A stretch of 64,000 bases of DNA, from NCBI RefSeq assembly GCF_030013595.1, contig NZ_CP122768.1; one strand, 5' to 3'. The first letter of the stretch is position 1. Each line of letters begins with the position of its first letter. The notes under the pieces are model-generated. The model did no database searches. It saw only the letters and a program-made list of their open reading frames with translations, and had not been told where the DNA came from. This document shows positions 1-15,638 of the stretch, piece by piece. The stretch is from Escherichia coli (GTDB lineage Bacteria; Pseudomonadota; Gammaproteobacteria; Enterobacterales; Enterobacteriaceae). A program made the translations under genes and the position numbers.

Positions 1-232
1 AGCGGCGGCAAAGTGGCAGCAGCTACAACGCGGAGCCGCAGCGTTCTCCATCACATTGGCACGTGGACGCGCAGAACTCTACCCCGAAATGCATGGCACG
101 GTAACAGGCTTTAAAAGCGAGATTGATAATCAGGACTGGATTATTGCGAAAGCCGAGCACACCATTGATAACAGCGGCTTTACCACGCAGCTTGAGCTTG
201 AGGCAAAAATCCCGGAATGGATAGCAGAATGA
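1..232 (+). CDS. 3' fragment of a phage late/tail gene, probably P2 gpD-like (runs off window start)
   Basis: Open frame from window start to TGA at 230-232 (..FTTQLELEAKIPEWIAE*); plus-strand, immediately upstream of an ogr-like gene as in P2 (D then ogr). Identification from position and weak sequence memory only. Confidence 0.4.
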   Translation, partial: AAAKWQQLQRGAAAFSITLARGRAELYPEMHGTVTGFKSEIDNQDWIIAKAEHTIDNSGFTTQLELEAKIPEWIAE

Positions 233-396
233 GACTCTTAAATGTATTAGTCCAGACACGTACTAGCGGGCTAAACGGCACAGTCTTATCTGACCATCTG
301 CCCCTGACACAGAGCAGACGGTCCTTGATCTTACCCACTAATAATGGACGCGCGACTAATATAATTTATTGCTTTTTATTTATACCTCACTGAGAT

Positions 397-1032
397 TTAG
401 CGAGCTAATATATTCAAAGAATTTAACAATTGAGTGTCGAGTGTTTCAGTTGCAGGAATCGGTAATCCATTCGCAATGCGGTAATTTTTCACAGACAGCC
501 TTGTGGATGGCCCCATTATGCCGTCAATATTTCCGTTATAAAATCCCCTGTCCAGCAATGCGAACTGAACTCGCATAATCAATCGCTTACGTTTCTCTGC
601 ATCAGAAGCAAGCCCATTACTCGTACGGTTAACCTCTGAAGTTCCAACAGAACTCGTGTTAGTGGTTCTATTATTATCGTTAGAACGAAGTGCACGCACC
701 GAGGAAGAGGACGATGAGGAACTTGCACCTGAACTTGAAGAACCAGATGAACTTGGTGAGCTGTATGTTTTTGGATAATAGGGGGTACTTCCACCATAGT
801 ATCCACCACCTGATGAGGATCTATGAGAGCTATGGCTCCTATGAGAACTATGGCTTCGATGCCCTGCGATATAAAATGGGACTTCCGTGTTAAGTGGAGC
901 TATCACTAAATCATGCTCATTAAGAGTCATACCAGGTAAATCACTCGCTCCTGTAGATGAATCGCTTGCCCATACAGAATTGTTGAGAGCCAAAAATCCC
1001 GGAAGTAGAGCAGCAAAATTAAACTTTTTCAT
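397..1032 (-). CDS. hxsA: HxsA-type His-Xaa-Ser repeat protein (signal peptide, tandem H-x-S triplets, Ser/Gly/Tyr-rich tract, C-terminal peptidoglycan-binding domain)
   Basis: Translation from MKKFNFAALLPGFLALNNSVWA (Sec-like signal) contains HRSHSSHRSHSSHRS, then SSPSSSGSSSSGASSSSSSSS, then a PG_binding_1-like C-terminus (LLDRGFYNGNIDGIMGPSTRLSVKNYRIANGL). Start ATG overlaps upstream gene stop (ATGA). Confidence 0.8.
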   Translation of the reverse strand: MKKFNFAALLPGFLALNNSVWASDSSTGASDLPGMTLNEHDLVIAPLNTEVPFYIAGHRSHSSHRSHSSHRSSSGGGYYGGSTPYYPKTYSSPSSSGSSSSGASSSSSSSSVRALRSNDNNRTTNTSSVGTSEVNRTSNGLASDAEKRKRLIMRVQFALLDRGFYNGNIDGIMGPSTRLSVKNYRIANGLPIPATETLDTQLLNSLNILAR

Positions 1033-2141
1033 AAAATTGGTCTCGGTGATTGATGAAAACGGCCTTTTGAGGAACTGAAATAGCCAGCACAGGAAGGCTT
1101 CTGAGTACATTCATCACATTCTTTTGGATAGTAATTTTTCCAATCAGAGATCGACTGAACAGCAAGCTCCCTAGCCCTTTCAGGAAGATAACACAAAGGA
1201 TAATTAAAAATTGTCAGAGGTATGCCTGACCTGTATGCAGCGTCTATGGCAGAGATTATTTTCTCACTATAACTACTGTGATCAATGAAGATGGTGGACC
1301 AGTTTTTTCGTGCCCAACCGATAGGCTCCAACCCCATAAGGGAAATCTGATTGATGTTGGAGAACACACGGCCAGCGAATTCTACGATATCATCCAATTC
1401 GGTATAGTTAGCCAGTGTAGGAATAACTCTAAGTTCGATATTAATCCCCAAGTTTCCTGCATTGATTAACCCTTTAACCGTTTCATTAAATGCGCCATCA
1501 CTCCCTACCAGATGATCATGCACAAGTGGTCTTGATGAGTAGAGCGGGATACCAAAGGTGATTTTGATCTTTTTGCTTCGCTTTGCCATTTCCTGTGTAA
1601 AGTTGGTATCAGCAAATTTGCGTCCGTTTGTTAAAACATGTAAAGCAGTATCTGGTGAATTCTCGATGATAAAATCAATGAAGTGAAGGAAGTCATCCCC
1701 ATATAGCAAAGGTTCACCACCGCTGACCCCAACAACTCCGTTCAAGCCAAATGAAGCTATAGCAAGAGCTGATTGGGTAAGTAGCCAGTCATCATTTATT
1801 TTCTTTGGTGGCTGCGAACAAAACAGACACAAGTTATTGCAGCGTTCCGTAACTAAGACAGTATTATGATTGGCTTTGCGTGACAGAATAACGCGTATCA
1901 TATTGCCATTGTTGATTATCCCAATATCTCCATCTTCAATTGACTCAAATAATTCAGTGCTAATAACAGAGAAATCAAAGCATGGTGGAATGGCATCATT
2001 ATTGCCTTCAGCAACTACTAGCAAATTGGGCAAAAAGAATAAAGGGTTCACTGGTTTTTGTTTGCATAACCGATAGAACCCCGTGGGCACGTTCTCTGTA
2101 GAAGCAAAATGAAAGATATCGTTCCTGATAACCTCAGACAT
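1029..2141 (-). CDS. Radical SAM maturase of the His-Xaa-Ser system (HxsB/HxsC-type; which of the two is not resolved)
   Basis: 370 aa ORF with CNNLCLFC (CxxxCxxC radical SAM cluster) and a C-terminal Cys-rich region (CDECTQKPSCAGY); sits between the other rSAM gene and hxsA with overlapping stop/start codons. Confidence 0.8.
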   Translation of the reverse strand: MSEVIRNDIFHFASTENVPTGFYRLCKQKPVNPLFFLPNLLVVAEGNNDAIPPCFDFSVISTELFESIEDGDIGIINNGNMIRVILSRKANHNTVLVTERCNNLCLFCSQPPKKINDDWLLTQSALAIASFGLNGVVGVSGGEPLLYGDDFLHFIDFIIENSPDTALHVLTNGRKFADTNFTQEMAKRSKKIKITFGIPLYSSRPLVHDHLVGSDGAFNETVKGLINAGNLGINIELRVIPTLANYTELDDIVEFAGRVFSNINQISLMGLEPIGWARKNWSTIFIDHSSYSEKIISAIDAAYRSGIPLTIFNYPLCYLPERARELAVQSISDWKNYYPKECDECTQKPSCAGYFSSSKGRFHQSPRPIL

Positions 2142-3522
2142 ATGCCCATCCTTTTAGCATCTCAGCCTTCGAACCACCCTCTGAGATGCAGTTCATCAGA
2201 TACCTGAACATCCCCTTGTGATATTGACAAAACGTTGAACGACTCCTATCACCGACAGGCTCACCCTGTACACTTATGTTCTGGCATGGATCTGAACCAC
2301 AAAATGGTTGATATGCACATGTATCACAACCTGGCAGAGCAAAATTGAACGATGAACTCAATACTGCGTTATAGTAAGGACTATCAGAAAATGATAGCGT
2401 CTTAACTTCACCCGCACTGAACTCCGTTTCAGGATTCACCTTCTGCAACATACGGCTCTCATCGCTACCATATACTCGACCGTCATAATTGAAAAGAATA
2501 CTGTTAAGCACGACTCCACTTGGAGACTTTAAATCCGCATAACCACTAAAACCGGGATTGAAGATCCTTTTCAGATGAATGGAGGCCGAATGTTCCACAA
2601 CCCTTATCCCTTCATTATTAATCTTAAGGATTTCATCTATCAACGAGGCATAGAAGCTGAAGTATTCGTCCATAGAAAAGGTGAAAGAAGCTTTTTGTGC
2701 AAACCCATAGGGACTAACAGGTCGGATAAACATGTCCTTGAGACCAAGAGACAAGTGAGCCTGAACAATCGATTCAGGACGTCTGATAAGCTCTTTAGTA
2801 ACTGTAGTAACCGTTGCAACGCGGCCAGCACCTAAAGAGTGTTTGATAGCCTCTACCCCTGACACTGTTCTACTGTACGCAAGCCCACGACCAAGAATTC
2901 GATTACTGTTGTGAACAACTTCCTCACCATCAAGCGACACAGAGAACGTTATGTTCCGGTCTCTCGACCATTCAATCATATCCTCATTCAAGACAGACAG
3001 ACTTGATGCCACCACCATCTCAAAATTGGTTCTTCCCAGCGTTTCAGCACATTGATCATAGATGCTCTGAATTAAATCAAACCGCAAGAGAGGCTCCCCA
3101 CCCTGTATCTCTATTTTGTAAGGTGGCGTTGATAGTTTTTTAATAGCCGAAATAATATCGGGGATGAGCTCAGGATTTAGGTCGTAACCTGAGGCATTAA
3201 CAGAAGCTCTACTAACCTGGCAATACTTGCATGTATGGTCACAACGTAATGTGGGTACAATCATGAAAATTGGCCTGACAGCCAGTTCATTCATCAATCG
3301 TTTTGCAAAAGCAGAACTTAAAGCATAGGGAGTTATAGCAGATGAGCTTTCACTGGTTATGAAAAGCTTACTTTCTAGCACGTTTGATTGCTCCGAACTA
3401 ATTCGCTCATCAGAAAGATCAATAAGGTCTTGCTCACCAATGAAATGATGAAAACCTGCAAGGTTGCTTATAAACACCTGTCCATTAGGCAATCTGTCAA
3501 AATTAAATGGCATCAATTCCAT
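2134..3522 (-). CDS. Radical SAM/SPASM-type maturase of the His-Xaa-Ser system (HxsB/HxsC-type)
   Basis: 462 aa ORF with CDHTCKYC radical SAM motif and C-terminal auxiliary-cluster cysteines (CDTCAYQPFCGSDPCQ...FCQ); stop overlaps next gene start by 8 nt; start overlaps hxsD stop (TAATG). Confidence 0.8.
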   Translation of the reverse strand: MELMPFNFDRLPNGQVFISNLAGFHHFIGEQDLIDLSDERISSEQSNVLESKLFITSESSSAITPYALSSAFAKRLMNELAVRPIFMIVPTLRCDHTCKYCQVSRASVNASGYDLNPELIPDIISAIKKLSTPPYKIEIQGGEPLLRFDLIQSIYDQCAETLGRTNFEMVVASSLSVLNEDMIEWSRDRNITFSVSLDGEEVVHNSNRILGRGLAYSRTVSGVEAIKHSLGAGRVATVTTVTKELIRRPESIVQAHLSLGLKDMFIRPVSPYGFAQKASFTFSMDEYFSFYASLIDEILKINNEGIRVVEHSASIHLKRIFNPGFSGYADLKSPSGVVLNSILFNYDGRVYGSDESRMLQKVNPETEFSAGEVKTLSFSDSPYYNAVLSSSFNFALPGCDTCAYQPFCGSDPCQNISVQGEPVGDRSRSTFCQYHKGMFRYLMNCISEGGSKAEMLKGWAYV

Positions 3523-3836
3523 TATGAAAGCCTCTCATCAACACTGCGAAGCACTTTATGGACAATAGAGTCTCTCAACGCCCCTGTTTTATGCTGTAGC
3601 TTTTCTCGCAAAGAGTAATCATTAAGCAGCCTATCGAATTCATAAAGGAATTTGGGATTATCGTTTTCAAAAGAGATTATCCAGTGGGAAACGTCTTCAT
3701 GGAGTTTCCATCGAGTAAGCGGAGTCATCCAATATAGACTATTGCGTATAACCCATTCAGAATATAGTTCTTTCTCAAACACTCTTTCGCTCATTGCAAT
3801 TATCTTCCAATACAAATATTCATGATCAGCAACCAC
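3522..3836 (-). CDS. hxsD: HxsD-type small protein carrying the LLNDYxLRE signature
   Basis: 104 aa ORF containing FDRLLNDYSLREKLQ; first gene of the four-gene minus-strand operon. True start may be an internal Met (MSERVF). Confidence 0.75.
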   Translation of the reverse strand: MVADHEYLYWKIIAMSERVFEKELYSEWVIRNSLYWMTPLTRWKLHEDVSHWIISFENDNPKFLYEFDRLLNDYSLREKLQHKTGALRDSIVHKVLRSVDERLS

Positions 3837-3871
3837 TTTAAAGCGGATTTTTCCTATGGCAACAATAATAT

Positions 3872-3974
3872 AACATATCCATAGATATGTTACAGATGCC
3901 TTGTTTCCCGTTGACTAATACATCACAACGTTAGTAATGGCTATCACAATTGTGAACTTCCACTTTTCACACAA
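3872..3974. promoter_or_regulatory. Divergent hxsD/ogr control region with two dyad-symmetric elements
   Basis: AACATAT-N6-ATATGTT palindrome at 3872-3891 and TGTGAA-N9-TTCACA dyad at 3954-3974, both in the 210-bp gap between divergent hxsD and ogr starts. Confidence 0.3.
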
Positions 3975-4046
3975 GACAAGCTGTTAATTGGAATCTGTAT
4001 CAGTACAACTTAGAATATCGGAAGCACCACAGTAAGGGAGGTCGCT

Positions 4047-4307
4047 ATGTTCCGTTGTCCGCTTTGTGGCGCATCCGCCCGAATCCGCACCAGTCGTCCG
4101 GAAAATGATTCAAACACCGTGCGGCAAAAGTATTACCAATGTAACAACCTAGAATGCGGCGTATGCTTCTCAACACTGGAAGCTTTCCATAAATTCACAT
4201 CAAAACACGCCTCCGGCGCTCACTCTTCAGAAGGTATCCCGTGGCATGAACTGCCAGCTTCACACAAAGGAAACAATCAGATGAGTTTGCCCTTACCTCA
4301 AAATTAA
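4047..4307 (+). CDS. ogr: Ogr/Delta-family zinc-finger late-gene transcription activator
   Basis: MFRCPLCGASARIRTSR...YYQCNNLECGVCF matches the P2 Ogr pattern (MFHCPLC..ARTSR...YHQCQNVNCSATF); C-terminally extended relative to P2 Ogr. Confidence 0.75.
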   Translation: MFRCPLCGASARIRTSRPENDSNTVRQKYYQCNNLECGVCFSTLEAFHKFTSKHASGAHSSEGIPWHELPASHKGNNQMSLPLPQN

Positions 4308-4367: not shown

Positions 4368-4631
4368 ATGGTCGGAGGGAATACCCGAAGGCCAGATGTG
4401 GAAAGGCCCCGGAAAACATTTCTGTTTAACCGAGGCCCTAACCGCATTACCTTGACAAGTGAAAGGTTAGCGCCTCTCCGGAAAAGGAGCAAGTGCTATG
4501 TCGCAAAAATCGCTTACGGCCATCATGTTCTGCGTGACGGCAATCCTCATCATCTGGATGTTGCACGGTTCGCTGTGCGAAATACGGATGAGATTCTGGG
4601 GAGCGGAGTTTGCGGCGTTCTTACAGTGTAA
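4368..4631 (+). CDS. mok-like reading frame overlapping hok (translational coupling frame of a hok/sok locus)
   Basis: 87-codon ORF in a different frame that starts upstream of and overlaps the hok-like frame, the arrangement typical of mok. Confidence 0.4.
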   Translation: MVGGNTRRPDVERPRKTFLFNRGPNRITLTSERLAPLRKRSKCYVAKIAYGHHVLRDGNPHHLDVARFAVRNTDEILGSGVCGVLTV

Positions 4632-4638
4632 GCAGTAA
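4498..4638 (+). CDS. hok: Hok/Gef-family type I toxin, 46 aa
   Basis: ATG at 4498 preceded by GGAGCA; peptide MSQKSLTAIMFCVTAILIIWMLHGSLCEIRMRFWGAEFAAFLQCKQ has one hydrophobic helix and the Hok-type C-x-T...SLCEIR motif; the 5' element GGGTGCCTT (4352-4360) is complementary to AAGGCACCC (4695-4703), resembling tac/fbi pairing. Confidence 0.7.
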   Translation: MSQKSLTAIMFCVTAILIIWMLHGSLCEIRMRFWGAEFAAFLQCKQ

Positions 4639-4724
4639 GGAAACCGCGACGGGGGAGCAATCCCCCGTCAATCGGTTGCCAGGGTAAGGTCGATAAGGCA
4701 CCCTATCTCACAGACATGAACAAC

Positions 4725-4902: not shown

Positions 4903-4928
4903 AAGAAAAAAGGCCGCAGAGCGGCCTT
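4903..4928 (-). terminator. Rho-independent terminator ending the minus-strand lambdoid gene set
   Basis: aggccgcagagcggcct hairpin with an A-run on plus strand (T-run on minus strand) immediately 3' of the ORF ending at 4949. Confidence 0.55.
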
Positions 4929-4948
4929 TATGGTTTATTGACAATTGA

Positions 4949-5164
4949 TTAAGACGTGTGGCACTTATTGGCACACCAATAGCAACCATTCACCCGGGAA
5001 TATCCTTTGGCCTTTGCCTCTGTTACCGCCGAAGAACAATCACTATAGTAACCAAGGTAATCGCGGTTAGCTACAGCAGGAAGATATGAACATTCCTCAG
5101 CATGCACCTCATGATCGCCATTGCTCTGAGCATTTTTGTTCACGTAATAGTGTTTAAAAACCAT
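4949..5164 (-). CDS. Hypothetical small Cys-rich phage protein
   Basis: 71 aa ORF, terminator immediately downstream; no family recognised. Confidence 0.4.
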   Translation of the reverse strand: MVFKHYYVNKNAQSNGDHEVHAEECSYLPAVANRDYLGYYSDCSSAVTEAKAKGYSRVNGCYWCANKCHTS

Positions 5165-5287
5165 TGTATAACTCCATGTTGACGCTGATATTCAGCATTA
5201 ACATGCTATATCACCAATTACACAAACATAAGCTTGTTATTTCAATTAGTTGATAACGATCACCACTGAACTTTGGCCTTGCGAAAT

Positions 5288-5497
5288 TCAAATGTTTTTC
5301 TGACTATTATTGGGCCGATAAACAGATATTATTTGAGCGTTTTGGTTCATTACATAAGCAATATCTCCATCTTTCAGAATGACTTTCCCATCCTTTCCCG
5401 ATACGGCAATACTCCGCTGCTCAGGATGATAGCCAATGCTACGCCCGCAATGGATCTCTTCCCCACCATTTTGAGACATGACTTTTACAGTTAACAT
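5288..5497 (-). CDS. Hypothetical small phage protein
   Basis: 69 aa ORF; no family recognised. Confidence 0.35.
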   Translation of the reverse strand: MLTVKVMSQNGGEEIHCGRSIGYHPEQRSIAVSGKDGKVILKDGDIAYVMNQNAQIISVYRPNNSQKNI

Positions 5498-5584
5498 TTT
5501 TCTGCTCCTATTTAGATGCCCTTTCCATCCGGGCCACTGTTCAAAGTAAATTTAGATTCAACAATATTCTGCTCTTACAGGCGA

Positions 5585-5767
5585 TCAGTTCTGCATACAC
5601 TGCCGAACACCGTCGACAATTTCACAGACCTGAGAAGCTGTATCGAAAAGCTGGCGCGCCTTATCCAGGCTGACGCATCCCACCAGGAAAAAAGGCACCA
5701 GTATCGCTACCAGTGCCCATTTCGCCGCCGTTCGCGGCATTCTGTGTGTCCAGTGTTTTCGCTTCAT
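5585..5767 (-). CDS. Small predicted lipoprotein (possible o-spanin or exclusion lipoprotein)
   Basis: MKRKHW... with hydrophobic signal and lipobox LVGC; lies downstream of the lysis cassette. Confidence 0.4.
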   Translation of the reverse strand: MKRKHWTHRMPRTAAKWALVAILVPFFLVGCVSLDKARQLFDTASQVCEIVDGVRQCMQN

Positions 5768-6266
5768 CTCACTATCCACCAATCAATCCGGATAAGCTCA
5801 ATACTCGCCAGGCGGTGGAAATGAAAATGGCAACCAACATTGCTGAAAATGAAAGGCCAACAACCACACAGAGAATTCGCGCCAGTTTTATAATGCTATC
5901 TGACATATTTACCCCTGCCCCACTTACGATTTCACAGCAATGAGCAATTTTGCCATCCCATACAGCATCGGAGACACAGCGATACCGACCGCCACCCACT
6001 TAATGGCAAAAGCCACCGCTCTGCTGATGTCATCAGTTACAGGCGCTTTCAATTCAAGGCCGTTTTTCATAGTCAACCTCAACAGAATTAGTTTATACTT
6101 CCTCATGTTCTCCTTTGCCTTACCCAAGGCCAGAAACAGAAAACCCCGGACTGTTACCGCAGCCGGGGTTTTTGCTATCTGATGCTATGCCCCTTACTTT
6201 CGCTCATCGTAGCCCCAGAAAAGAGCCTGCATGAGTTGAGGGTGTTCAGCACTTCAGTGTCAGTTT

Positions 6267-6812
6267 TTAAACCACCACGCGCTCTTTCATCCAGCCATAG
6301 ACAAACGACTCATTGGCCTCGCGTTTCTCTGCCAGCTCCAGATAACGCTCGCCCTGCGTACAGTTCAGGGCTTTCACCAGTACCAGTTCACCATCCCTGC
6401 TGCGATTTTTCAGATATGCCCGTAATGCATTAAGAGTACGCGGCCCGATGCGTCCATCAGCATCCATATCCGGATAGAGTTTCCCGCGCAGGTTGAAAAC
6501 GTTCAGCCAGCGCTGAAGCATTCTGGACGCCACAGTTGGCCCCATGTTCACGCCCGTATCGCACAACTCTGCGGCAATATCCGGAGACAGGTCCTCAACC
6601 TGGTCGAATCGTGGTCCGTACCAGTAGTCCGCCTCGAGTATTTCCAGCGCCTGCCCACGCGTCAGGTCACGCATATCGCCCTGATAACCGTGTGCACGGG
6701 CAACTTTTTCAGTGATGCCCCATTTAGTCGGACCACCTTTATCATCCGGGTGATTGACGTAACCGCCCTCTTTTCCCAGAATTTCGTCAAAAATTTCATC
6801 TTTCGACTTCAT
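6267..6812 (-). CDS. Endolysin, GH108-like muramidase with peptidoglycan-binding region
   Basis: MKSKDEIFDEILGKEGGYVNHPDDKGGPTKWGITE N-terminus typical of GH108 lysozyme-like phage proteins; follows two holin-like membrane genes. Confidence 0.65.
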   Translation of the reverse strand: MKSKDEIFDEILGKEGGYVNHPDDKGGPTKWGITEKVARAHGYQGDMRDLTRGQALEILEADYWYGPRFDQVEDLSPDIAAELCDTGVNMGPTVASRMLQRWLNVFNLRGKLYPDMDADGRIGPRTLNALRAYLKNRSRDGELVLVKALNCTQGERYLELAEKREANESFVYGWMKERVVV

Positions 6813-6813
6813 A

Positions 6814-7104
6814 TCAGCGCCTTCGTAATACAAGGATTTTTGATACGTTCCCGCGTGCTCGTATCACCAGCACGCAGAACACCAGGTTAATCAGGACGAC
6901 CAGCCAGTTACCGGGAGGAAAGCGACCACACAGATAACAAAGCGGCGCAAAGGCATAAAGCAGCATCAGCAGCCAGGCCAGCCACGACATCAGCGGTTTA
7001 TGTCTCGACTCACCACGACGATAAAAAAAGAGCGTCAGCACGATAACCGTGCTTAACACCACATTCAGTAATCCGGGAAGGTTACTTAACATTACCGCCT
7101 CCAC
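6814..7104 (-). CDS. Small multi-pass membrane protein, holin/antiholin-like
   Basis: 96 aa, strongly hydrophobic segments, wedged between holin-like gene and endolysin. Confidence 0.45.
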   Translation of the reverse strand: MEAVMLSNLPGLLNVVLSTVIVLTLFFYRRGESRHKPLMSWLAWLLMLLYAFAPLCYLCGRFPPGNWLVVLINLVFCVLVIRARGNVSKILVLRRR

Positions 7105-7471
7105 CCCGCAGACGGGAGAACAGCCCGGATACCAGCGATGCGATATCCTGCTGGTGGATGAATGAGAGAATCTTCACCGACACCACCGATACCAGTACCG
7201 CACAAAGCGCGTCGAGAGATGTGCTGTGGAGATTCAATTTTTCGACCAGCCAGGACGCAAGGACATCCGCCCCCAGCACGCCAACAATGAACGACACCAG
7301 AAAATGCGCCGCCACACGCCAGACAGAAATCACCTGTGGCATCGTGGCCACAAACAACGCCCCGGCAAACGCGCCAAACACAATCCCGAAATCCGTCCCG
7401 GTAAACAGCCCGAATACCGTCGCCCCGCCGAGCGCCACAGCAGTGCTGGAACCGGATAAGGGTTCAGACAT
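7082..7471 (-). CDS. Holin-like membrane protein
   Basis: Start MSEPLSG at 7471 with GGAGAA RBS; Gly/Ala-rich transmembrane segments; first gene of the lysis cassette. Confidence 0.5.
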   Translation of the reverse strand: MSEPLSGSSTAVALGGATVFGLFTGTDFGIVFGAFAGALFVATMPQVISVWRVAAHFLVSFIVGVLGADVLASWLVEKLNLHSTSLDALCAVLVSVVSVKILSFIHQQDIASLVSGLFSRLRGGGGNVK

Positions 7472-7670
7472 ATTTATTCTCCTGTAAATAAAAAGGACCA
7501 TCAGCGGCCCCGTAACTGACATTTTATTAACGTTTGAAGATATGGATATTTATCAGGGTTTACCGTTTTCTGAACCCTGGATATGTTAAGCATTCAGCCC
7601 GCCAGTGGTGGGACGCTGGCTCATCATAGAGAAAGAGGGATGGCTGATTACCTCTGATCAGGGAAATCAC

Positions 7671-7940
7671 ATGCAGTTTTTACATAAAAGAATGCATTTA
7701 AATGCAGGAGATACGGTAGTGGTTGACTGCTCTCATCAGTGCAATATTTTGCTGATGACAGATACAAACTTTAATAACTACCGCAACGCAAGAAGCTTTC
7801 ATCATCACGGTGGTGGCGGTTTTTTTCAGAGATTACCGGCCCACCTTCATGTACCGCATTCAGGTTACTGGAATATTACAATTGATTTAGGAGGCGGAAG
7901 TGCAGCTATTCGGCACTCCATTTCCGTCATCCCAGCATAG
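7671..7940 (+). CDS. Hypothetical phage protein, antisense to the late operon
   Basis: ATG at 7671 with AGGGA RBS (the listed ORF begins at a GTG at 7605); hairpin plus T-run downstream at about 8196-8235. Confidence 0.4.
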   Translation: MQFLHKRMHLNAGDTVVVDCSHQCNILLMTDTNFNNYRNARSFHHHGGGGFFQRLPAHLHVPHSGYWNITIDLGGGSAAIRHSISVIPA

Positions 7941-8298
7941 CAACTCGCCTTTAGCCTGAGTAAATGCGTCCTCAAGGACGGCAACGAGTCGCAGTTGCGT
8001 GCCGTCCTTTACACAGCGTGTGCAGGCAATACCTTCAGAACTTTCATTATGCCGAGCTCATACAATTTCACCATTTTGTTCAACTACAACGCTCATAATT
8101 TTCTTACACTTTTTTAATAAACCACACCAATAACAACCATCACCGATACCTTTTGTATGCTGTTATTTTGCATTACGGTGTAACGGCAAGAGCCCCCTCC
8201 CCGCCCTGAAAGGCTCTGTGTTTTTGATGTGCGCCTGATGTGGCTCAGATACAAAAAAGCTCGCAGTAGCGAGCTAACAGAAAATATGAAGCATGTTT

Positions 8299-8577
8299 TT
8301 ATCCACGAAGTATGACGTTGAATTCATCCATACCGACACGGCTGGCTATCTCGTTGTATTCCTCAACAAGAGCCAGCAATTCTGAATTAGCAGCCATGAA
8401 CTCTTCAAAAACCTTATGGATGGCATCACTGTTTAATAAAACAATGTTCTTTCCTGAAAGGCGATCAGGGGTAGAAAATATAACTGTCAAACGACTAAAG
8501 GCCCTGGCTCGTTCAGCATTAACATCCTCAATACGCTGCAACAAGCTGGAGCACCTGGAAATATCATCAATATTCAC
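8299..8577 (-). CDS. Hypothetical protein (cargo between Q and lysis genes)
   Basis: 92 aa ORF followed by a minus-strand hairpin terminator (gctcgcagtagcgagc with T-run) near 8254-8280. Confidence 0.4.
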   Translation of the reverse strand: MNIDDISRCSSLLQRIEDVNAERARAFSRLTVIFSTPDRLSGKNIVLLNSDAIHKVFEEFMAANSELLALVEEYNEIASRVGMDEFNVILRG

Positions 8578-9095
8578 TCTACTCCTGCCATCTGGATGAT
8601 AATCATTTCACGGAGAGAAGCACTCAGAAGTACCACTGAAGTATAGCTGGTGACCAGCTACTTACACATCTATTGCCATCCTGCTGATGATAAGTCGACA
8701 TTAGCCCTTCTGTCTATAAACGAAACAAAGGATAAGTTCAGGTTTTAAACACACTGCCAGGATAAAGTATTGTATACAGTATAGAAGAGCGTTATTGAAT
8801 GACATAAAAAACCAGACCTAATCCCTTATCCGGAAGATATATCAAATAAACGGGGAAAATGTATTAAGATGGCGTTCCTATTCTCTCCATCCCTGATGTC
8901 CACGTAACTCGTTATAGAATCAGAACGCCATCTGAATACACACAAAAAAGCTGACTTCACACCCTCCAGATGTGTGAACGCAGTGCCCGACCACGTGCTT
9001 TCGCAACCAGCACAAATCATTTTAAAGCATCGAAAAACGATCAGAATATATCAGAACTTCCTAGCATCCTGCTTGGCTTAGATATTAATCGAGGA

Positions 9096-10181
9096 TTAGC
9101 TCCTGTTCTTATCTAATTGTGCATTTCGCAATTTATCGTTCAGCACCAATATTTCACCAACTGTTTGTTCAAAACGCCCGGACTCAAGTTCAACCCCAAT
9201 CGTGCGACGCCCCAATCCCATTGCTGCTTTTATTGTTGCCCCCGATCCCATAAAAAAATCCGCAACCACATCCCCCGGACGACTGCTGGCAGAAATTATC
9301 TGACGCAACATATCCGCCGGTTTTTCGCAGGGATGCTTACCCGGATAATACTGCACGGGCTTATGCGTCCAGACGTCCGTATAAGGAACGGCGGCCGATA
9401 CAGAAAAATAACGCCGCAGAGATTTGTATTCCTCAAGCAGACTGGCATATTGCCGGTTCAGTTCACTGTATGTGCTGACCAGTTGCTGGTGTGGCGTTGC
9501 CAGCTCCCCACGCTGGTGCTTTTCTTCTGCAACACACGCGAACAGCGCCTGCAGTTTTCTGTAATCAGCTTCGTTCGGTAACTGCCACTGACAGGTACCA
9601 AACCAGTGCGACACCATGTTTTTCTTTCCGGTGGCTTCCGCTATCTGTTTGGACGTTATCCCCAGTGATTCACGCGCATCACGGAAGTAAGAAATCAGCG
9701 GGGCCATGACGTGTTGTTTAAGCTCGCGCTCCTTTGCCGCATAGCCATCATTTTTTGGCTGGTATGGCCCCTGATAATGTTCGGCAAACAGAATGCGCTC
9801 TGTTGCCGGGAAATACGCCCGCAGGCTTTCTTTGTTGCACCCGTTCCAGCGTCCGGATGGCTTCGCCCAGATAATGTGGTTCAGCACATTAAAGCGCTCA
9901 CGCATCATGATTTCGGTGTCAGATGCCAGGCGATGACCACAGAACAGGTAGAGACTTCCGGCAGGTTTCAGTACCCGCCAGAACTGAGCCAGACACTGAT
10001 CCAGCCATTTCAGGTAATCATCGTCGCCCTTCCACTGGTTATCCCAGCCCTCGGGCTTCACTTTAAAGTATGGCGGGTCTGTGACTATCAGATCGACAGA
10101 GTTTTCCGGTAAGGTCTGGATAAATTCCAGGCAATCAGCGTTGATTAACTCACAACTGGATATTTTTACAGTATCAACCAT
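9096..10181 (-). CDS. Orphan DNA N6-adenine (or N4-cytosine) methyltransferase, beta class
   Basis: LIVTDPPYF (motif IV) precedes DFFMGSGATIKAA (motif I); no adjacent restriction endonuclease gene. Confidence 0.75.
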   Translation of the reverse strand: MVDTVKISSCELINADCLEFIQTLPENSVDLIVTDPPYFKVKPEGWDNQWKGDDDYLKWLDQCLAQFWRVLKPAGSLYLFCGHRLASDTEIMMRERFNVLNHIIWAKPSGRWNGCNKESLRAYFPATERILFAEHYQGPYQPKNDGYAAKERELKQHVMAPLISYFRDARESLGITSKQIAEATGKKNMVSHWFGTCQWQLPNEADYRKLQALFACVAEEKHQRGELATPHQQLVSTYSELNRQYASLLEEYKSLRRYFSVSAAVPYTDVWTHKPVQYYPGKHPCEKPADMLRQIISASSRPGDVVADFFMGSGATIKAAMGLGRRTIGVELESGRFEQTVGEILVLNDKLRNAQLDKNRS

Positions 10182-10331
10182 AGATCAATAAGCACTTCTC
10201 TGATAGGCTCATACCGCTTTTGCGCAAAGCAGATGGGCCTGAGGTTTGCTTGTGACCCTAACGCATGAGCAGATGGCTGGCAGGTGCCGCTAACACCCAC
10301 CAGCCGCCCATTACCACAAATGAAAAAACCT

Positions 10332-10529
10332 TCACTGCGGAAGGCGTCTGTAACAACCGAACTGATAATCTGCCAGACCCGCCATAACAAGCTGGGTCAG
10401 TATTAACTGACAGCGTTCGCGTGAAAGGTAAGTATTCTGCGCAATTTCCCCAACTGTTGCCGGTTCAGTGACGCTTAATTCATTAAACACCACTCTGGCT
10501 GTTTCGGTCATATCCTGCTGTTTTAGCAT
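10332..10529 (-). CDS. Small hypothetical protein, possibly DNA-binding
   Basis: 65 aa ORF upstream of the methyltransferase. Confidence 0.3.
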   Translation of the reverse strand: MLKQQDMTETARVVFNELSVTEPATVGEIAQNTYLSRERCQLILTQLVMAGLADYQFGCYRRLPQ

Positions 10530-10702
10530 GTCTTTTTCTCTTTATTGGTTAACGTGACATACCAATAACTCTTGTCGAAAAAGCCAGCAAGCTGAAAGAC
10601 CGGTATTAATAACCACCTGCACATTTTATGTACCGAACCATTTTTCTGGCATAAAAAACCTCTCAATGGCGGGCGGTAAAAATCTTTGTTACTCAAGAAA
10701 TT

Positions 10703-11416
10703 TTAACGCACTCTGACTGTATTAATTTCAAAATCATTAATATTTCCGCTATTAAATATAACGAATTTCTTACCCCCACTCCTGTATGATTTCGATAACA
10801 CCAGACGATCATCATAACGCGCAATAATGTAATACCATACATTCTCATAGTGGATCGCCTGATATTCCCTCTTAAACTGTGGTTTGTACCAACCGGCAAT
10901 AAGAGAGAATGCCCAGAAATAAATCATAAACCCAGCCATCATGAACTCAATTCGGTGATGACGAATAAAAGACATTTCCGAAAAACATTTGACTGAAACA
11001 AGTCTTCTTCCAAACCTGACAAAAAGCGTGATTGTAAAGGCAGCAAGAATGCAGAAAATCAGTACATCTGGCTCAACATGCTGATGGATTACCGAAAACT
11101 CCAGAACAGGTGGAATAAAAAGCAGCAATATCGCGAGAAAAAGCCGGATAAAACTCAAATTTTGTATATTGCGCTTTTGTTTTATGCCCAAAAAGAAAAC
11201 AATACCAACTCCCCATCCAATAAGGAATATAACGATAACTGTCACAGCATAAAACAAACTTCGTGCTACATCATCGACACCAGCCCCGACAACCCACCAT
11301 GGAAAGCCATAGTAAAATGAAGTACCCCATCCATAGAAATAAGCGCTTCCCCATCCTAGACAGCCCATATAAGCAACAAAAAGTGAAGAGTTTCTGAGCA
11401 GAGCACTGTCATCCAT
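10703..11416 (-). CDS. Multi-pass membrane protein of unknown function (first gene after pR'/tR')
   Basis: 237 aa with about four hydrophobic helices and an approx 50 aa soluble C-terminus; lies in a visibly AT-rich segment. Confidence 0.5.
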   Translation of the reverse strand: MDDSALLRNSSLFVAYMGCLGWGSAYFYGWGTSFYYGFPWWVVGAGVDDVARSLFYAVTVIVIFLIGWGVGIVFFLGIKQKRNIQNLSFIRLFLAILLLFIPPVLEFSVIHQHVEPDVLIFCILAAFTITLFVRFGRRLVSVKCFSEMSFIRHHRIEFMMAGFMIYFWAFSLIAGWYKPQFKREYQAIHYENVWYYIIARYDDRLVLSKSYRSGGKKFVIFNSGNINDFEINTVRVR

Positions 11417-11554
11417 AGTAACACCATTAACAACTCAAAAATATCAACACATATTACATAACAAATTGGATTCCATGCAGTCAAGGGGCGTCATTGATGG
11501 AGAAAGTATTGGCACAATCATCATCACGTTTAATGTCTATGCCATTTTTTTGGG

Positions 11555-11583
11555 GATAAAAAAACCCGCTCGGTCACGGGTTT
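11555..11583 (-). terminator. tR'-like Rho-independent terminator
   Basis: aaacccgtgaccgagcggguuu hairpin followed by T-run on the minus strand, about 50 nt downstream of the putative pR'. Confidence 0.55.
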
Positions 11584-11637
11584 TACTAGCTTTGCCATCA
11601 CGTATAAAAACGGCAAAATATCAGATTCACACGAAAT

Positions 11638-11666
11638 ATATGCCTTTTTATCTACTTTTGCAATAC
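11638..11666 (-). promoter_or_regulatory. pR'-like late promoter immediately downstream of Q
   Basis: Minus-strand TTGCAA, 17 nt spacer, TATATT; positioned between Q stop (11671) and the terminator. Confidence 0.45.
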
Positions 11667-11670
11667 TTTG

Positions 11671-12342
11671 CTATGAAAATGCCGCCTTTTGTTTTGAACG
11701 TGTTCCCTCCACCAACAATAAAGCTTCACCATCCAGCCGATGAAAAATGTGTTTCATTGCAACCCAGTGACCAGTAAATGTCTTGGACCAGTTTTTGGTT
11801 GTTACTCCCACCAGTAACGCCAGTTCCTGGTATTCGTAACCTTCCCCACCAAAAAGCTCAGCTTTTACCGCCTGCGCCGCCAACCAGATCAACGTCTTCA
11901 GGCGCACCAGAGTTTTTCCTGCAATTTTTCTGGTACCGGATTGAGCATTAAATTCAGTCCACGCCCACTGCGTTATCGCGATCTGATGCTCCCAGCAAAT
12001 GCTACCGCTGTAACACCACAGCAGCCAGGCTTTATGATGTTCTTCAAGAGACAGAACGGCGCGTCGCCATGATGATGTCGAAAACTCAACCGGACTGACC
12101 AGGGCAATTGATGAACCTTTCACCAGCGATTGCTTTCCCGGGATCGGTGGATTATCCAGCGTTACTATTTTTCCAGTGACCTTATCGCGGTACCGGATTT
12201 TTTTACGTCTGTAACGCCCTGTATTGAACATGGCATTCTCCTGCCAGGCTTCAAGCTGACCTTTTGTTGCTCCACTCAAATCAGCGGTGGCGATCATGAG
12301 CTGCTCACGCACAAACTGTAAATACTGGTTATTCATGCGCAC
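11671..12342 (-). CDS. Probable late antiterminator (Q-like)
   Basis: 223 aa ORF directly upstream of a promoter/terminator pair and downstream of rusA, the canonical Q position; family assignment by context only. Confidence 0.45.
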   Translation of the reverse strand: MRMNNQYLQFVREQLMIATADLSGATKGQLEAWQENAMFNTGRYRRKKIRYRDKVTGKIVTLDNPPIPGKQSLVKGSSIALVSPVEFSTSSWRRAVLSLEEHHKAWLLWCYSGSICWEHQIAITQWAWTEFNAQSGTRKIAGKTLVRLKTLIWLAAQAVKAELFGGEGYEYQELALLVGVTTKNWSKTFTGHWVAMKHIFHRLDGEALLLVEGTRSKQKAAFS

Positions 12343-12692
12343 TCCAGTTCTGTGATTTTTATCCCCAGCCGACCACCGGGAACAACCTGACCGCGCATAA
12401 TATTAACTTCATCAAACTGCTCATCGTCGATAAGCAGTCCCGCATGTGTCAGCGCATCCAGTGGTGCCTTCAGGATATTGTCCAGGTCGCGGCGGCGCTT
12501 ATCCGGTGGCTCTGCAATAATTTTTATTGCCAGCCTTCCGGACAGGTTTAATTTCAGTCGCTGCTGGCGAACAATAAGCGCCACATCACGGCGATAACGC
12601 TCACCGGCTTTTGATACAAAATATGTGCTGCCACGACGTCGCCAGTAGGTGTTCACCGTTGGCGGGTAAGGCAAAACAAATTCTATCCCCAT
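12333..12692 (-). CDS. rusA: RusA-family Holliday junction resolvase
   Basis: 119 aa; PYPPTVNTYWRRRG...RRRDLDNILKAPLDALTHAGLLIDD matches RusA conserved motifs. Confidence 0.85.
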   Translation of the reverse strand: MGIEFVLPYPPTVNTYWRRRGSTYFVSKAGERYRRDVALIVRQQRLKLNLSGRLAIKIIAEPPDKRRRDLDNILKAPLDALTHAGLLIDDEQFDEVNIMRGQVVPGGRLGIKITELECA

Positions 12693-12704
12693 CAGTAACC
12701 TCTT

Positions 12705-13754
12705 TTATCCGAGTACGCCTGTTGCAAAGGCGTGATCAAGAAAACGAAAAATTAAATCAACCTGAGAACCATGTTTTTCTTCGAATGCCTGCGGATCCGC
12801 ATGAAGCTCGTTGTGATGCTCCCGACACAGCGGCAACGTAAAAATATCGTGGGCCTTTGTTCCCATCCCTCCCTGACCGTGACCAATCAGGTGATGGGGA
12901 TCGTCGGCTGGCTTACCACAACACGCACACGGCTGTGTCTTCACCCAGCGTGTGTATTTCTCATTTACCCAACGGCGACGTTTAGGTCGCTTCATGAAAG
13001 ATTCCGGAGACTCAGGATCAACGGCAATGCTGACCACCGTCTTTTCCTGTGGTGTGTTCTGTTGCTGGTGGACGTGAGGCAACGGCGCAAGATTTTTTGT
13101 GCGCTGCTTCAGTATGCTGGTGGCGGTCTGCTCTCCCGGTACGATGTCGCTTTCGCGGTAAACCGTGCGGATTTTTTCCGCACGTAATCCCAGAGAACGA
13201 CGTAATACTGCCTCCGGTAGCGCGTCCGCCACCTGATTGCAGACCGCCCACCAGGATAATTCAGCCAGCGATAATTCCCGTTCCTGTGCACCACTTATTG
13301 CGTGACGTATGACGTCAATCATCCAGGCTGTCAGATTTTGTTGAGCAAGCTGCCCGAGTGATTCGGATGTCTGGTCGCGCAGCTGGTTGTCGCAGTGCCA
13401 GCACAACAACATTGCGCCGGTACCGTAACGATGTATGACGGTTTCACTGTGGTGATAGTCTCCATGAGGCCACTGGCAGGATTTAACATGACGCAGGAGC
13501 CAGTCAGACAGTGCGCCAGCGCCGCCAGCAGCACGAATCACACGCTCATCGCTGAAAAACGGCAGCAATGTTTTATCTTCCGCCAGCGGCTGGCGAACGG
13601 CAGGAACGACTCCGGACGGCATACCGCGCATGTTTTTCGGTTCCGGCTCCACCAGCACCCTGCCGTTATGGAATACCTGCATGGATTCACGCCCCGGCTT
13701 AAGGACCACCAGCCCGAGTTCCGGTACCGGAACAGGTCGAAGTAATACCCGCAC
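12705..13754 (-). CDS. DUF968-like lambdoid nin-region protein with C-terminal Cys/His cluster
   Basis: 349 aa; C-terminus CACCGKPADDPHHL...CREHHNELH; family assignment from memory of YdfU-like prophage proteins. Confidence 0.5.
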   Translation of the reverse strand: MRVLLRPVPVPELGLVVLKPGRESMQVFHNGRVLVEPEPKNMRGMPSGVVPAVRQPLAEDKTLLPFFSDERVIRAAGGAGALSDWLLRHVKSCQWPHGDYHHSETVIHRYGTGAMLLCWHCDNQLRDQTSESLGQLAQQNLTAWMIDVIRHAISGAQERELSLAELSWWAVCNQVADALPEAVLRRSLGLRAEKIRTVYRESDIVPGEQTATSILKQRTKNLAPLPHVHQQQNTPQEKTVVSIAVDPESPESFMKRPKRRRWVNEKYTRWVKTQPCACCGKPADDPHHLIGHGQGGMGTKAHDIFTLPLCREHHNELHADPQAFEEKHGSQVDLIFRFLDHAFATGVLG

Positions 13755-13755
13755 G

Positions 13756-14028
13756 TTACCTCCAGATGCGTTGCTGGAATGTGCGGGACGGACGCGGCGG
13801 GCGTTCGGAATAAGGGAGCCTGACGTAGATTATCCAGTGATGGTAGTCGAGGCTAAGGGCTTTCTTAAACTCATACCCACGTCTGCGGTAGTTATGAATC
13901 AGCCATTCGGCCTGTTCTTCAGTGCAGGGATCGTGCTGATACCAGTCATATTTGAATGTGTGAGAACACCGCCCTTGCCTGCTGGCAGGGGCGGTATCAG
14001 AATTGTGATGTTTGGTATTGTGCGCCAT
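13756..14028 (-). CDS. Hypothetical nin-region protein
   Basis: ORF; likely start MAHNTKHH. Confidence 0.35.
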   Translation of the reverse strand: MAHNTKHHNSDTAPASRQGRCSHTFKYDWYQHDPCTEEQAEWLIHNYRRRGYEFKKALSLDYHHWIIYVRLPYSERPPRPSRTFQQRIWR

Positions 14029-14163
14029 CGGTTTTCTCTGCTGGCGCAGCAGGTGCCAGTTGTTCAAGCTGGCGTGCGGCAATATTGTCTCTGATTTCTG
14101 TTGTCGTCAACAGGCAACGTGCTATCATCGAATGGTGTTCTATCCTACTCCGTGAGGTTTACC

Positions 14164-14421: not shown

Positions 14422-14426
14422 TCTGC

Positions 14427-15637: not shown

Positions 15638-15638
15638 A

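What the first reader, a model, noticed from the sequence alone, without database searches (positions are those of the whole stretch)
1029..3524. Two distinct radical SAM enzymes and tight translational coupling across the operon
Stop/start overlaps link all four genes: TAATG at 3520-3524 (hxsD to first rSAM), an 8-nt overlap at 2134-2141, and ATGA at 1029-1032 (second rSAM to hxsA). Two different rSAM maturases for one substrate suggests two chemically distinct modifications or a heterodimeric enzyme; stoichiometric co-expression seems to be enforced.
Basis: seen in the sequence. Interest (0 to 1): 0.5.

Follow-up and report, generated by a model that had tools for sequence, protein, structure and literature searches.

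The report
Known HXS anti-phage operon, overlapping genes
This is an intact copy of the already described four-gene HXS anti-phage defence operon, carried as cargo by a P2-like prophage; its two different radical SAM enzymes and its overlapping stop/start codons are real and conserved, but ordinary for this family.

Summary
On the minus strand, hxsD (3522-3794), hxsB (2134-3522), hxsC (1029-2141) and hxsA (397-1032) are joined by TAATG, ATGTCTGA and ATGA overlaps. RefSeq calls identical boundaries in near-identical E. coli loci, and homologue N-termini support all three downstream starts. Both radical SAM proteins have intact CxxxCxxC motifs and are only distant paralogues (21-23% identity).

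All four proteins pass the curated NCBIfam cut-offs for HxsD, HxsB, HxsC and HxsA. This system was defined in silico by Haft and Basu and shown in 2026 (Li et al., Nat Commun, PMC13128918) to block phage DNA entry through a matured periplasmic HxsA.

New detail from 80 species:
- The B/C junction is tight in 70 of 71 loci (-8 in 35 of 39 DBCA-type loci).
- Each enzyme keeps only four conserved extra cysteines, enough for one auxiliary cluster rather than a full SPASM set.
- HxsD is not PqqD-like.

Both enzymes are required, but published pull-downs found HxsC-HxsD and no HxsB-HxsC complex, and only one +8 Da modification is known. Overlaps are also common in the neighbouring P2 genes (11 of 22), and hxsA is uncoupled in the second architecture. 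Low interest; already known.

The parts
3522..3794 (-). hxsD, a 90-aa accessory protein with the LYW and LLNDYxLRE motifs
   Evidence: TIGR03976 scores 90.6 bits against a cut-off of 50. RefSeq uses the same ATG start. Y21, D59, L62 and R63 are invariant in 49 homologues. The AF2 model has pLDDT 95 with a beta-alpha-beta-beta-long-helix topology.
2134..3522 (-). hxsB, a 462-aa radical SAM enzyme with a SPASM-related C-terminal region
   Evidence: TIGR03978 scores 558.9 bits against a cut-off of 370. CxxxCxxC lies at C94/C98/C101. The only other cysteines conserved across species are C399, C402, C408 and C432.
1029..2141 (-). hxsC, a 370-aa radical SAM enzyme with an N-terminal all-beta domain
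   Evidence: TIGR03977 scores 398.4 bits against a cut-off of 267.9. CxxxCxxC lies at C101/C105/C108. C317, C342, C345 and C351 are invariant. The AF2 model has pLDDT 88.
397..1032 (-). hxsA, a 211-aa effector precursor
   Evidence: TIGR03979 scores 161.3 bits against a cut-off of 121.65. It has a signal-peptide-like N-terminus (residues 1-22, window 967-1032) and Pfam PG_binding_1 at residues 154-191 (window 460-573).
814..861 (-). Five His-Xaa-Ser repeats plus one Ser (HRSHSSHRSHSSHRSS, residues 58-73). The last repeat, SHRSS, is the published site of the +8 Da modification.
   Evidence: Translation. Site assignment from PMC13128918.
3520..3524 (-). hxsD/hxsB junction TAATG, a 1-nt overlap
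   Evidence: The junction is -1 or -4 in 33 of 38 DBCA-type species.
2134..2141 (-). hxsB/hxsC junction ATGTCTGA, an 8-nt overlap, preceded by AAGGA seven nt upstream of the ATG
   Evidence: The junction is -8 in 35 of 39 DBCA-type species and falls between -7 and +6 in all 32 ADBC-type species.
1029..1032 (-). hxsC/hxsA junction ATGA, a 4-nt overlap
   Evidence: The junction is -4 in 34 of 40 DBCA-type species.
3795..4046 (.). Divergent intergenic region between hxsD and ogr, the presumed hxs promoter region
   Evidence: Promoter-like hexamers lie on the minus strand at 3893-3865 and 3862-3835, but such hits occur at the background rate for the region. Their function is inferred only.
233..4005 (.). 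3.77-kb cargo cassette inserted between the gpD stop and the ogr leader of a P2-like prophage
   Evidence: Homology to the cargo-free phage PhiR44_2 ends at about window 229 and resumes at 4006.
1..232 (+). 3' end of the P2-type tail gene gpD (flank)
4047..4307 (+). ogr/Delta-like zinc-finger late-gene activator (flank)

Best explanation
The region is an intact hxsD-hxsB-hxsC-hxsA operon, the HXS anti-phage defence system. Here it is carried as a 3.77-kb cargo cassette between gpD and ogr of a P2-like prophage.

Shown by others for a near-identical E. coli operon:
- All four genes are needed for defence.
- Mature HxsA carries a +8 Da change on the last HxS repeat and accumulates in the periplasm.
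- The system blocks phage DNA entry without abortive infection.
- HxsC binds HxsD.

Shown here:
- HxsB and HxsC are distant paralogues. Each has a canonical CxxxCxxC plus exactly four further conserved cysteines built around a shared CX2CX5C motif.
- The fourth cysteine differs in position. It lies downstream in HxsB (C432) and upstream in HxsC (C317, at a position where HxsB has an invariant Ser353).
- HxsD is a small alpha/beta protein that does not resemble PqqD-type recognition elements.
- The D/B and B/C stop/start junctions overlap or abut in almost all of about 70 species. The A junction is tight only in the DBCA gene order.

Inferred:
- Each enzyme holds one auxiliary Fe-S cluster.
- The two enzymes perform non-redundant, probably sequential steps on the terminal H-x-S-S motif. 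HxsD acts as HxsC's substrate-presenting partner.
- The overlaps allow termination-reinitiation coupling, so the low-abundance maturation proteins are made together. They do not fix a 1:1 stoichiometry.
For: - Family assignment above curated cut-offs for all four proteins.
- Identical annotation and gene boundaries in RefSeq E. coli genomes.
- Cysteine numbering identical to the mutated residues in the experimental paper: HxsB C98/C101 and C399/C402, HxsC C105/C108 and C342/C345.
- Published function and interaction data (PMC13128918).
- Cysteine conservation in 70-71 species.
- hhalign alignment of B with C that includes the CX2CX5C motif.
- Junction statistics and junction sequences.
- Prophage cargo boundaries and their frequency in E. 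coli.
- PHROG families that match HxsC and the HxsB C-terminus.
Against: - No experiment was done on this exact copy. The published operon appears to be a close variant: its HxsA has 214 aa against 211 here, and its HxsD numbering is shifted by +2.
- PADLOC-DB 2023 has no HXS model, so that tool gives no independent defence call.
- The division of labour between HxsB and HxsC, the one-cluster inference and translational coupling are all untested.
- The junction RNA folds give no sign of structure-dependent coupling.
- Start calls in the divergent ADBC group rest on consensus-column picking and are less certain, especially for hxsD (19 of 31 at the consensus column).
Confidence: 0.9

Rival explanations
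1. HxsB and HxsC form an obligate heterodimeric maturase, and the overlapping cistrons exist to enforce equimolar synthesis.
For: - B and C are adjacent in 78 of 80 loci, and their junction falls between -16 and +6 nt in 70 of 71 species, despite turnover of the junction sequence.
- Both enzymes are essential for HxsA processing.
Against: - Published pull-downs found HxsC-HxsD but no stable HxsB-HxsC complex.
- No B-C fusion protein occurs in the 80 loci, nor among the 120 listed HxsC homologues, all of which are about 370 aa or shorter fragments.
- Legionella feeleii has an orphan HxsC.
- An overlap does not by itself fix a 1:1 ratio.
Confidence: 0.15
2. The overlaps have no regulatory role. 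They are a by-product of genome compaction in a mobile, phage-borne cassette and persist because removing an overlap requires coordinated changes.
For: - Of the same-strand junctions in the neighbouring P2 prophage genes, 11 of 22 overlap, against 0 of 7 in the adjacent host genes.
- The junction RNA folds are no more stable than shuffled sequences (z = 0.88, -1.18 and 1.53).
- No Shine-Dalgarno match was scored for hxsA or hxsD in this copy.
Against: - The -8 geometry at B/C is kept in 35 of 39 species across Enterobacterales, Vibrio, Marinobacter and Hahella while the eight nucleotides vary.
- Tightness at B/C persists in non-phage islands and in distant phyla.
- A Shine-Dalgarno-like AAGGA or GGAG often precedes the hxsC start.
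Confidence: 0.3
3. The operon makes a secreted, RiPP-like His/Ser-rich product, for example a metal-binding peptide, and is not primarily a defence system.
For: - The ADBC-type loci encode short secreted precursors of 85-110 aa whose HxS repeats sit at the extreme C-terminus, which is typical precursor-peptide anatomy.
- The nearest families to HxsB are RiPP maturases such as PapB, CteB and CbpB.
Against: - The DBCA-type system, with the same residues as this copy, gave at least 1000-fold protection against most of 110 of 113 coliphages, and HxsA stays in the periplasm through a peptidoglycan-binding domain.
- This copy has that domain and sits in a prophage cargo slot.
Confidence: 0.05

Closest known systems
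HXS anti-phage system of E. coli (Li et al. 2026, Nat Commun 17:3910, PMC13128918); families TIGR03976-TIGR03979 (Haft and Basu in-silico definition, as cited in PMC9062424)
   Same: - Same four families, all above the curated cut-offs.
- Same D-B-C-A gene order.
- Same cysteine positions as those mutated in the paper.
- Five HxS repeats ending in SHRSS, a signal peptide and a peptidoglycan-binding domain.
   Different: - This copy is prophage cargo between gpD and ogr of a P2-like phage. That class makes up 45 of 155 hxs-positive complete E. coli genomes.
- HxsA is 211 aa here against 214 aa in the paper, and the HxsD numbering is offset by two residues, so this is a close variant rather than the tested clone.
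SPASM-domain RiPP maturases (anSME, CteB 5wgg, PapB, CbpB)
   Same: - HxsB aligns to the anSME, PapB and CbpB models through its C-terminal region.
- It shares the CX2CX5C motif.
- Its best PDB sequence match is CteB.
   Different: - Only four conserved C-terminal cysteines are present, against the seven of the SPASM motif.
- The first hairpin cysteine is an invariant Ser in HxsB.
- Pfam reports no SPASM domain.
- One auxiliary cluster is inferred, not two.
Twitch-type and small radical SAM enzymes (SkfB 6efn, viperin, MoaA, BlsE, EpeE)
   Same: These are HxsC's closest solved relatives by sequence and by fold over the radical SAM core. A short C-terminal extension with few cysteines suggests a single auxiliary cluster.
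   Different: - TM-scores are only about 0.47, and the match covers the core alone.
- HxsC has a unique N-terminal all-beta domain (residues 1-90) and an invariant SISDWKN motif.
- Unlike viperin, the substrate is a protein and not a nucleotide.
PqqE-PqqD and other radical SAM enzymes paired with a RiPP recognition element
   Same: A small separate protein, HxsD, binds one radical SAM enzyme, HxsC, and is required for maturation of the precursor. This is functionally analogous to PqqD presenting PqqA to PqqE.
Two-radical-SAM peptide systems such as SynChlorMet ScmE/ScmF (named here from the NCBIfam hit list; thuricin CD TrnC/TrnD from my own knowledge)
   Same: One cassette encodes two distinct radical SAM enzymes. 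HxsC has weak matches to ScmE and ScmF.
   Different: The precursors and the chemistry are different. HXS targets a single protein effector that is retained in the periplasm.

Membership tests
HXS (His-Xaa-Ser) system | HxsA: a secreted protein with tandem His-Xaa-Ser repeats | tested here: met
   TIGR03979 scores 161.3 bits against a cut-off of 121.65. Five HxS repeats lie at residues 58-72. The N-terminus MKKFNFAALLPGFLALNNSVWA looks like a signal peptide by inspection; no signal-peptide predictor was run.
HXS (His-Xaa-Ser) system | HxsB radical SAM maturase with an intact CxxxCxxC | tested here: met
   TIGR03978 scores 558.9 bits against a cut-off of 370. The motif is C94/C98/C101.
HXS (His-Xaa-Ser) system | HxsC, a second and distinct radical SAM maturase with an intact CxxxCxxC | tested here: met
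   TIGR03977 scores 398.4 bits against a cut-off of 267.9. The motif is C101/C105/C108. Identity to HxsB is 21-23%.
HXS (His-Xaa-Ser) system | HxsD small protein with the LYW and LLNDYxLRE motifs | tested here: met
   TIGR03976 scores 90.6 bits against a cut-off of 50. LYW lies at residues 20-22 and LLNDYSLRE at 56-64.
HXS (His-Xaa-Ser) system | Contiguous co-directional D-B-C-A gene order | tested here: met
   The same order occurs in 40 of 80 species loci, and 32 have A-D-B-C.
HXS (His-Xaa-Ser) system | Peptidoglycan-binding domain in HxsA (the E. coli-type effector) | tested here: met
   Pfam PG_binding_1 matches residues 154-191 with i-Evalue 3e-4. SleB-like matches appear.
HXS (His-Xaa-Ser) system | Confers resistance by blocking phage DNA entry | not testable with these tools
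   Shown only for the published E. coli operon (PMC13128918).
SPASM-domain radical SAM enzymes | Seven-cysteine motif (CX9-15GX4C ... CX2CX5CX3C ... C) that ligates two auxiliary [4Fe-4S] clusters | tested here: not met
   - HxsB conserves only C399, C402, C408 and C432. C413 is present in 32 of 38 DBCA-type sequences and in none of 32 ADBC-type sequences.
- HxsC conserves only C317, C342, C345 and C351.
- Pfam reports no SPASM hit for either enzyme.
Twitch-domain radical SAM enzymes | A truncated C-terminal domain that binds a single auxiliary cluster | tested here: inconclusive
   Four conserved cysteines per enzyme fit a single cluster. No residue-level structural superposition or metal analysis was possible. 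The fold matches cover only the core.
PqqD-like RiPP recognition element (for HxsD) | Winged helix-turn-helix fold: a three-stranded sheet followed by three helices | tested here: not met
Prokaryotic viperins (pVip) | A full-length match to the pVip models, with a nucleotide substrate | tested here: not met
   Only weak partial matches to the radical SAM core: 28-29 bits, covering about 115 of 257 model positions. The NCBIfam viperin model scores 21 bits against a cut-off of 180.

The most novel reading that the evidence does not exclude
HxsB and HxsC may install two chemically different radical steps on the same terminal H-x-S-S motif. The published +8 Da, described as a '+C/-4H-type' change, would then be a composite of a carbon insertion and dehydrogenative cross-links. 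Each step would use a differently wired single auxiliary cluster. The conserved B/C overlap could reflect co-translational assembly of a transient B-(C-D) machine that pull-downs missed. This would be a new two-enzyme cross-linking chemistry on a folded protein effector.
Probability: 0.2. Interest if true: 0.55.

Novelty: already known. Interest (0 to 1): 0.2.

Why it matters
The system matters as a defence that stops phage DNA in the periplasm, but that has already been published. This analysis adds modest points.

- It confirms an intact copy riding in the gpD-ogr slot of a P2-like prophage.
- The maturation genes are kept in overlapping or abutting register across roughly 70 species.
- Neither enzyme is a full SPASM protein. 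Each conserves only four extra cysteines, with a different position for the fourth.
- HxsD is not a PqqD-type recognition element.
- A second, widespread A-D-B-C architecture exists, with short precursors that end in HYSS.

These details can guide mutagenesis and in vitro reconstitution. They do not open a new question.

Tried and rejected
- **Mis-called starts.** Rejected. RefSeq boundaries, HMM coverage and conserved N-termini all agree.
- **A degenerate radical SAM motif in one ORF.** Rejected.
- **HxsB and HxsC as recent duplicates** (the paper calls them 'twin-like'). Rejected, since they share only 21-23% identity.
- **HxsD as a PqqD/RRE protein.** Rejected by the fold search.
- **N-terminal domains of HxsB and HxsC as known recognition domains.** NCBIfam gave no hit outside the proteins' own families at E up to 10.
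- **A PADLOC defence call.** No HXS model exists in the 2023 release, and only weak pVip core hits appeared.
- **Structure-dependent translational coupling.** The junction RNA folds are no more stable than shuffles.
- **Internal promoters or terminators.** Hits occur at background rates: 12 promoter-like sites against 9.6 expected, and 6 terminator-like sites against 4.4 expected. No terminator was found after hxsA.
- **Conflict with the paper's statement that most hxs operons are outside prophages.** No conflict. 45 of 155 E. coli genomes (29%) carry the P2-cargo type, close to the paper's 23%.
- **PDB sequence searches.** They reach only the radical SAM cores, so auxiliary-cluster ligands could not be mapped onto a solved structure.
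- **First-pass start picking in the ADBC group.** Using the E. coli-based HMM was unreliable, so it was replaced by group-specific consensus columns. The hxsA starts in that group remain poor and were not used.


Full report
**Observation.** Four co-directional ORFs lie on the minus strand.

| Gene | Window coordinates | Length |
|---|---|---|
| hxsD | 3522-3794 (ATG; an upstream GTG at 3836 is not used by RefSeq) | 90 aa |
| hxsB | 2134-3522 | 462 aa |
| hxsC | 1029-2141 | 370 aa |
| hxsA | 397-1032 | 211 aa |

The ORF list gives a longer hxsA form starting at 1110. The conserved signal-peptide start is the ATG at 1032.

**The starts are sound.**
- RefSeq annotates the same boundaries in the 99.6%-identical locus of E. 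coli O26:H11 11368. It does the same in E. coli variants that are only 91% and 72% identical at the DNA level.
- The HxsB model aligns from residue 3.
- Across species, HxsB begins M-x-x-[ML]-PFNF and HxsA begins MKK...LAALL. HxsC residues M1, R6, D8 and F10 are invariant.

**Both enzymes are intact and distinct.** CxxxCxxC is present in HxsB (C94/C98/C101) and in HxsC (C101/C105/C108). The two proteins share 23% identity over 140 residues by BLASTP, and 21% over 275 aligned columns by hhalign at 90% probability.

**Identity.** All four products exceed the curated NCBIfam cut-offs.

| Protein | Model | Score (bits) | Cut-off (bits) |
|---|---|---|---|
| HxsD | TIGR03976 | 90.6 | 50 |
| HxsB | TIGR03978 | 558.9 | 370 |
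| HxsC | TIGR03977 | 398.4 | 267.9 |
| HxsA | TIGR03979 | 161.3 | 121.65 |

HxsA has five HxS repeats (residues 58-72, followed by Ser73), an N-terminal signal-peptide-like segment and a PG_binding_1 domain. PGAP names the genes hxsA to hxsD in the matching E. coli genomes. The system was predicted in silico by Haft and Basu, as cited in PMC9062424.

**Published function.** Li et al. (Nat Commun 2026, PMC13128918) characterised the system experimentally.
- The operon protected E. coli against 110 of 113 coliphages, without abortive infection and without loss of adsorption.
- All four genes were required.
- Double Cys-to-Ala changes at HxsB C98/C101 or HxsC C105/C108 abolished HxsA processing. 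Changes at HxsB C399/C402 or HxsC C342/C345 reduced it.
- Mature periplasmic HxsA carried a +8 Da change located on the SHRSS motif.
- Pull-downs found an HxsC-HxsD complex and no stable HxsB-HxsC association.

The mutated cysteine numbers coincide with those of the window proteins. This copy is therefore a close variant of the tested system.

**Context.** The operon is a 3.77-kb cargo cassette in a P2-like prophage.
- Homology to the cargo-free P2-like phage PhiR44_2 stops at the end of gpD (about window 229) and resumes at 4006, 41 nt before ogr. In that phage, gpD and ogr are 43 nt apart.
- In 5,426 complete E. coli genomes, 155 carry an hxs operon. It comes in three sequence classes: at least 99% identity (45 genomes), about 90% (46) and about 72% (64).
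- 45 genomes share the gpD-hxsA junction and 43 share the hxsD-ogr junction, out of roughly 1,130-1,200 genomes that have this gpD/ogr region.
- One representative of each of the other two classes was inspected. Both lie in integrase/relaxase islands beside DUF6119 or TIGR04141 genes.
- The P2-cargo share of 29% agrees with the paper's figure that 77% of operons lie outside predicted prophages.
- PHROGs holds families matching HxsC and the C-terminal part of HxsB.

**Are the overlaps more than chance?** In the local context they are not remarkable. Of the same-strand junctions among the neighbouring P2 genes in the O26:H11 locus, 11 of 22 overlap, including a run of five. In the adjacent host genes, 0 of 7 overlap.

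The geometry is conserved, however. I fetched 80 loci, each from a different species genome, out of 398 species that encode an HxsC relative. I identified the four families by iterative HMM search and placed starts by homology and by consensus column.

| Architecture | Loci | D/B | B/C | Junction involving hxsA |
|---|---|---|---|---|
| D-B-C-A (Gammaproteobacteria) | 40 | -4 in 23 and -1 in 10, of 38 | -8 in 35 of 39 | C/A: -4 in 34 of 40 |
| A-D-B-C (Beta- and Alphaproteobacteria, Legionella, actinobacteria, myxobacteria and others) | 32 | -4 or -8 in 20 of 31 | -7 in 12, -4 in 8, the rest -1 to +6, of 32 | A/D: usually a spacer, median about 56 nt |

The eight overlapping nucleotides at B/C vary between species (ATGTCTGA, ATGCCTGA, ATGGTTAA, ATGAGTAA and others) while the register stays fixed.

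The conserved feature is therefore tight linkage of D, B and C. Linkage of the substrate gene is specific to one architecture. RNA folds of the three window junctions are no more stable than shuffled controls. Any coupling would thus work by termination-reinitiation, not by unmasking a structure. This is inference; no experiment bears on it.

**What the two enzymes look like.**
- Conservation across 70-71 species shows that each enzyme keeps only four cysteines beyond the radical SAM triad. HxsB keeps C399, C402, C408 and C432. HxsC keeps C317, C342, C345 and C351.
- hhalign aligns the CX2CX5C motifs of the two proteins. It places HxsC C317 (FNYPLC) opposite the HxsB stretch FNYDGRVYGS, where Ser353 is invariant.
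- Pfam reports no SPASM domain in either protein.
- HxsB does align through its C-terminal region with the anSME, PapB and CbpB models. Its best PDB sequence match is CteB.
- HxsC's nearest solved relatives are SkfB, viperins, MoaA, BlsE and EpeE, over the core only and with TM-scores near 0.47.
- The HxsC AlphaFold model (pLDDT 88) has an N-terminal all-beta domain at residues 1-90, and no solved structure matched beyond the radical SAM core.
- I infer one auxiliary cluster per enzyme, with a different fourth ligand in each. This goes beyond the paper's description of 'two 4Fe-4S cluster domains', but it is untested.

**The substrate.** In the A-D-B-C loci, HxsA is a short secreted protein of 85-110 aa whose HxS repeats end the protein as ...SHYSS[R/Y]. 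The published modification site SHRSS in the E. coli type is the equivalent last repeat followed by Ser. The terminal H-x-S-S is thus the element shared by both architectures and is the likely common target. This is inference.

**Verdict on the interpretation.**
- Two distinct, non-redundant radical SAM enzymes: correct.
- Heterodimeric enzyme: not supported by the only interaction data available, nor by the absence of fusions. An orphan HxsC also exists in Legionella feeleii.
- Two distinct modifications: possible but unproven. The +8 Da shift, described by the authors as '+C/-4H-type', could be composite, but it has not been split between the enzymes.
- Enforced stoichiometry: over-reads a feature that is common in compact operons and that does not hold for hxsA in the other architecture.

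**Novelty.** The feature is a textbook member of a family that is already annotated automatically and now has a published function. The extra findings here are incremental: junction conservation, four-cysteine auxiliary sites, a non-RRE HxsD, the A-D-B-C class and the gpD-ogr cargo slot.

Noticed in passing
window 233-4005; L082 3990-4042: The hxs cassette sits exactly in the 43-nt gpD-ogr spacer of a P2-like prophage. Only about 45 of roughly 1,130-1,200 E. coli genomes with this gpD/ogr region carry it there, so this spacer acts as an occasional cargo slot.
   Followed up: partly
E. coli hits H1-H4, H10, H13-H15; H53, H68: In 8 of the 20 best-matching E. coli genomes, the otherwise near-identical operon is interrupted by an IS element (IS2/IS3 family, IS600 or ISVsa5). 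This suggests frequent inactivation. The window copy is intact.
   Followed up: no
L042-L081 (32 loci), e.g. L048 3689-4055: A second architecture, hxsA-D-B-C, occurs in Beta- and Alphaproteobacteria, Legionella, actinobacteria and myxobacteria. Its secreted HxsA is short (85-110 aa), ends in ...HxSHxSHYSS[R/Y] and usually lacks a peptidoglycan-binding domain. The published survey, which was seeded on the long HxsA, reports 99.6% D-B-C-A.
   Followed up: partly
L051 3629-4657 (Legionella feeleii): An HxsC homologue with all seven conserved cysteines stands alone. No HxsB, HxsD or HxS-repeat gene lies within 3.6 kb upstream or 6 kb downstream.
   Followed up: partly
L024 4608-6008 (Providencia stuartii); L029 4607-6008 (Morganella morganii): hxsB is split into two or three ORF pieces in these species genomes. 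These are probably pseudogenes or sequencing frameshifts.
   Followed up: no
L083 5375-6982; L084 3289-4932: In the non-prophage E. coli islands, hxsA is followed by a large TIGR04141 / DUF6119 family gene. An integrase lies nearby (next to ssrA in L084), together with relaxase genes. These look like mobilisable defence islands.
   Followed up: no
window 4498-4638 and 4647-4670: A Hok/Gef-type small toxin ORF follows ogr. It is followed in turn by a strong GC-rich hairpin with 10 pairs. The same hok gene follows ogr in E. coli O26:H11.
   Followed up: no
window 4907-24000: From about 4907 onwards, the window matches a different prophage at 99.9% identity. Its genes include a DNA methyltransferase, DUF968, an exonuclease and DUF1627. 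No complete E. coli genome in the collection has this region contiguous with the P2/hxs segment.
   Followed up: partly
window 6267-6833 (-): A 188-aa ORF shows lysozyme-like N-terminal motifs (EGGYVNHPDDKGGPTKWGIT). It is followed by two small hydrophobic ORFs at 6814-7104 and 7082-7522. Together they probably form a lysis cassette of the neighbouring prophage.
   Followed up: no
window 3522-3794 (HxsD model m99c48a6d3d92): HxsD is predicted with very high confidence, yet it has no close structural relative in the PDB. Its best matches are de novo designed beta-sheet heterodimers, which hints that it binds its partner by edge-strand pairing.
   Followed up: partly
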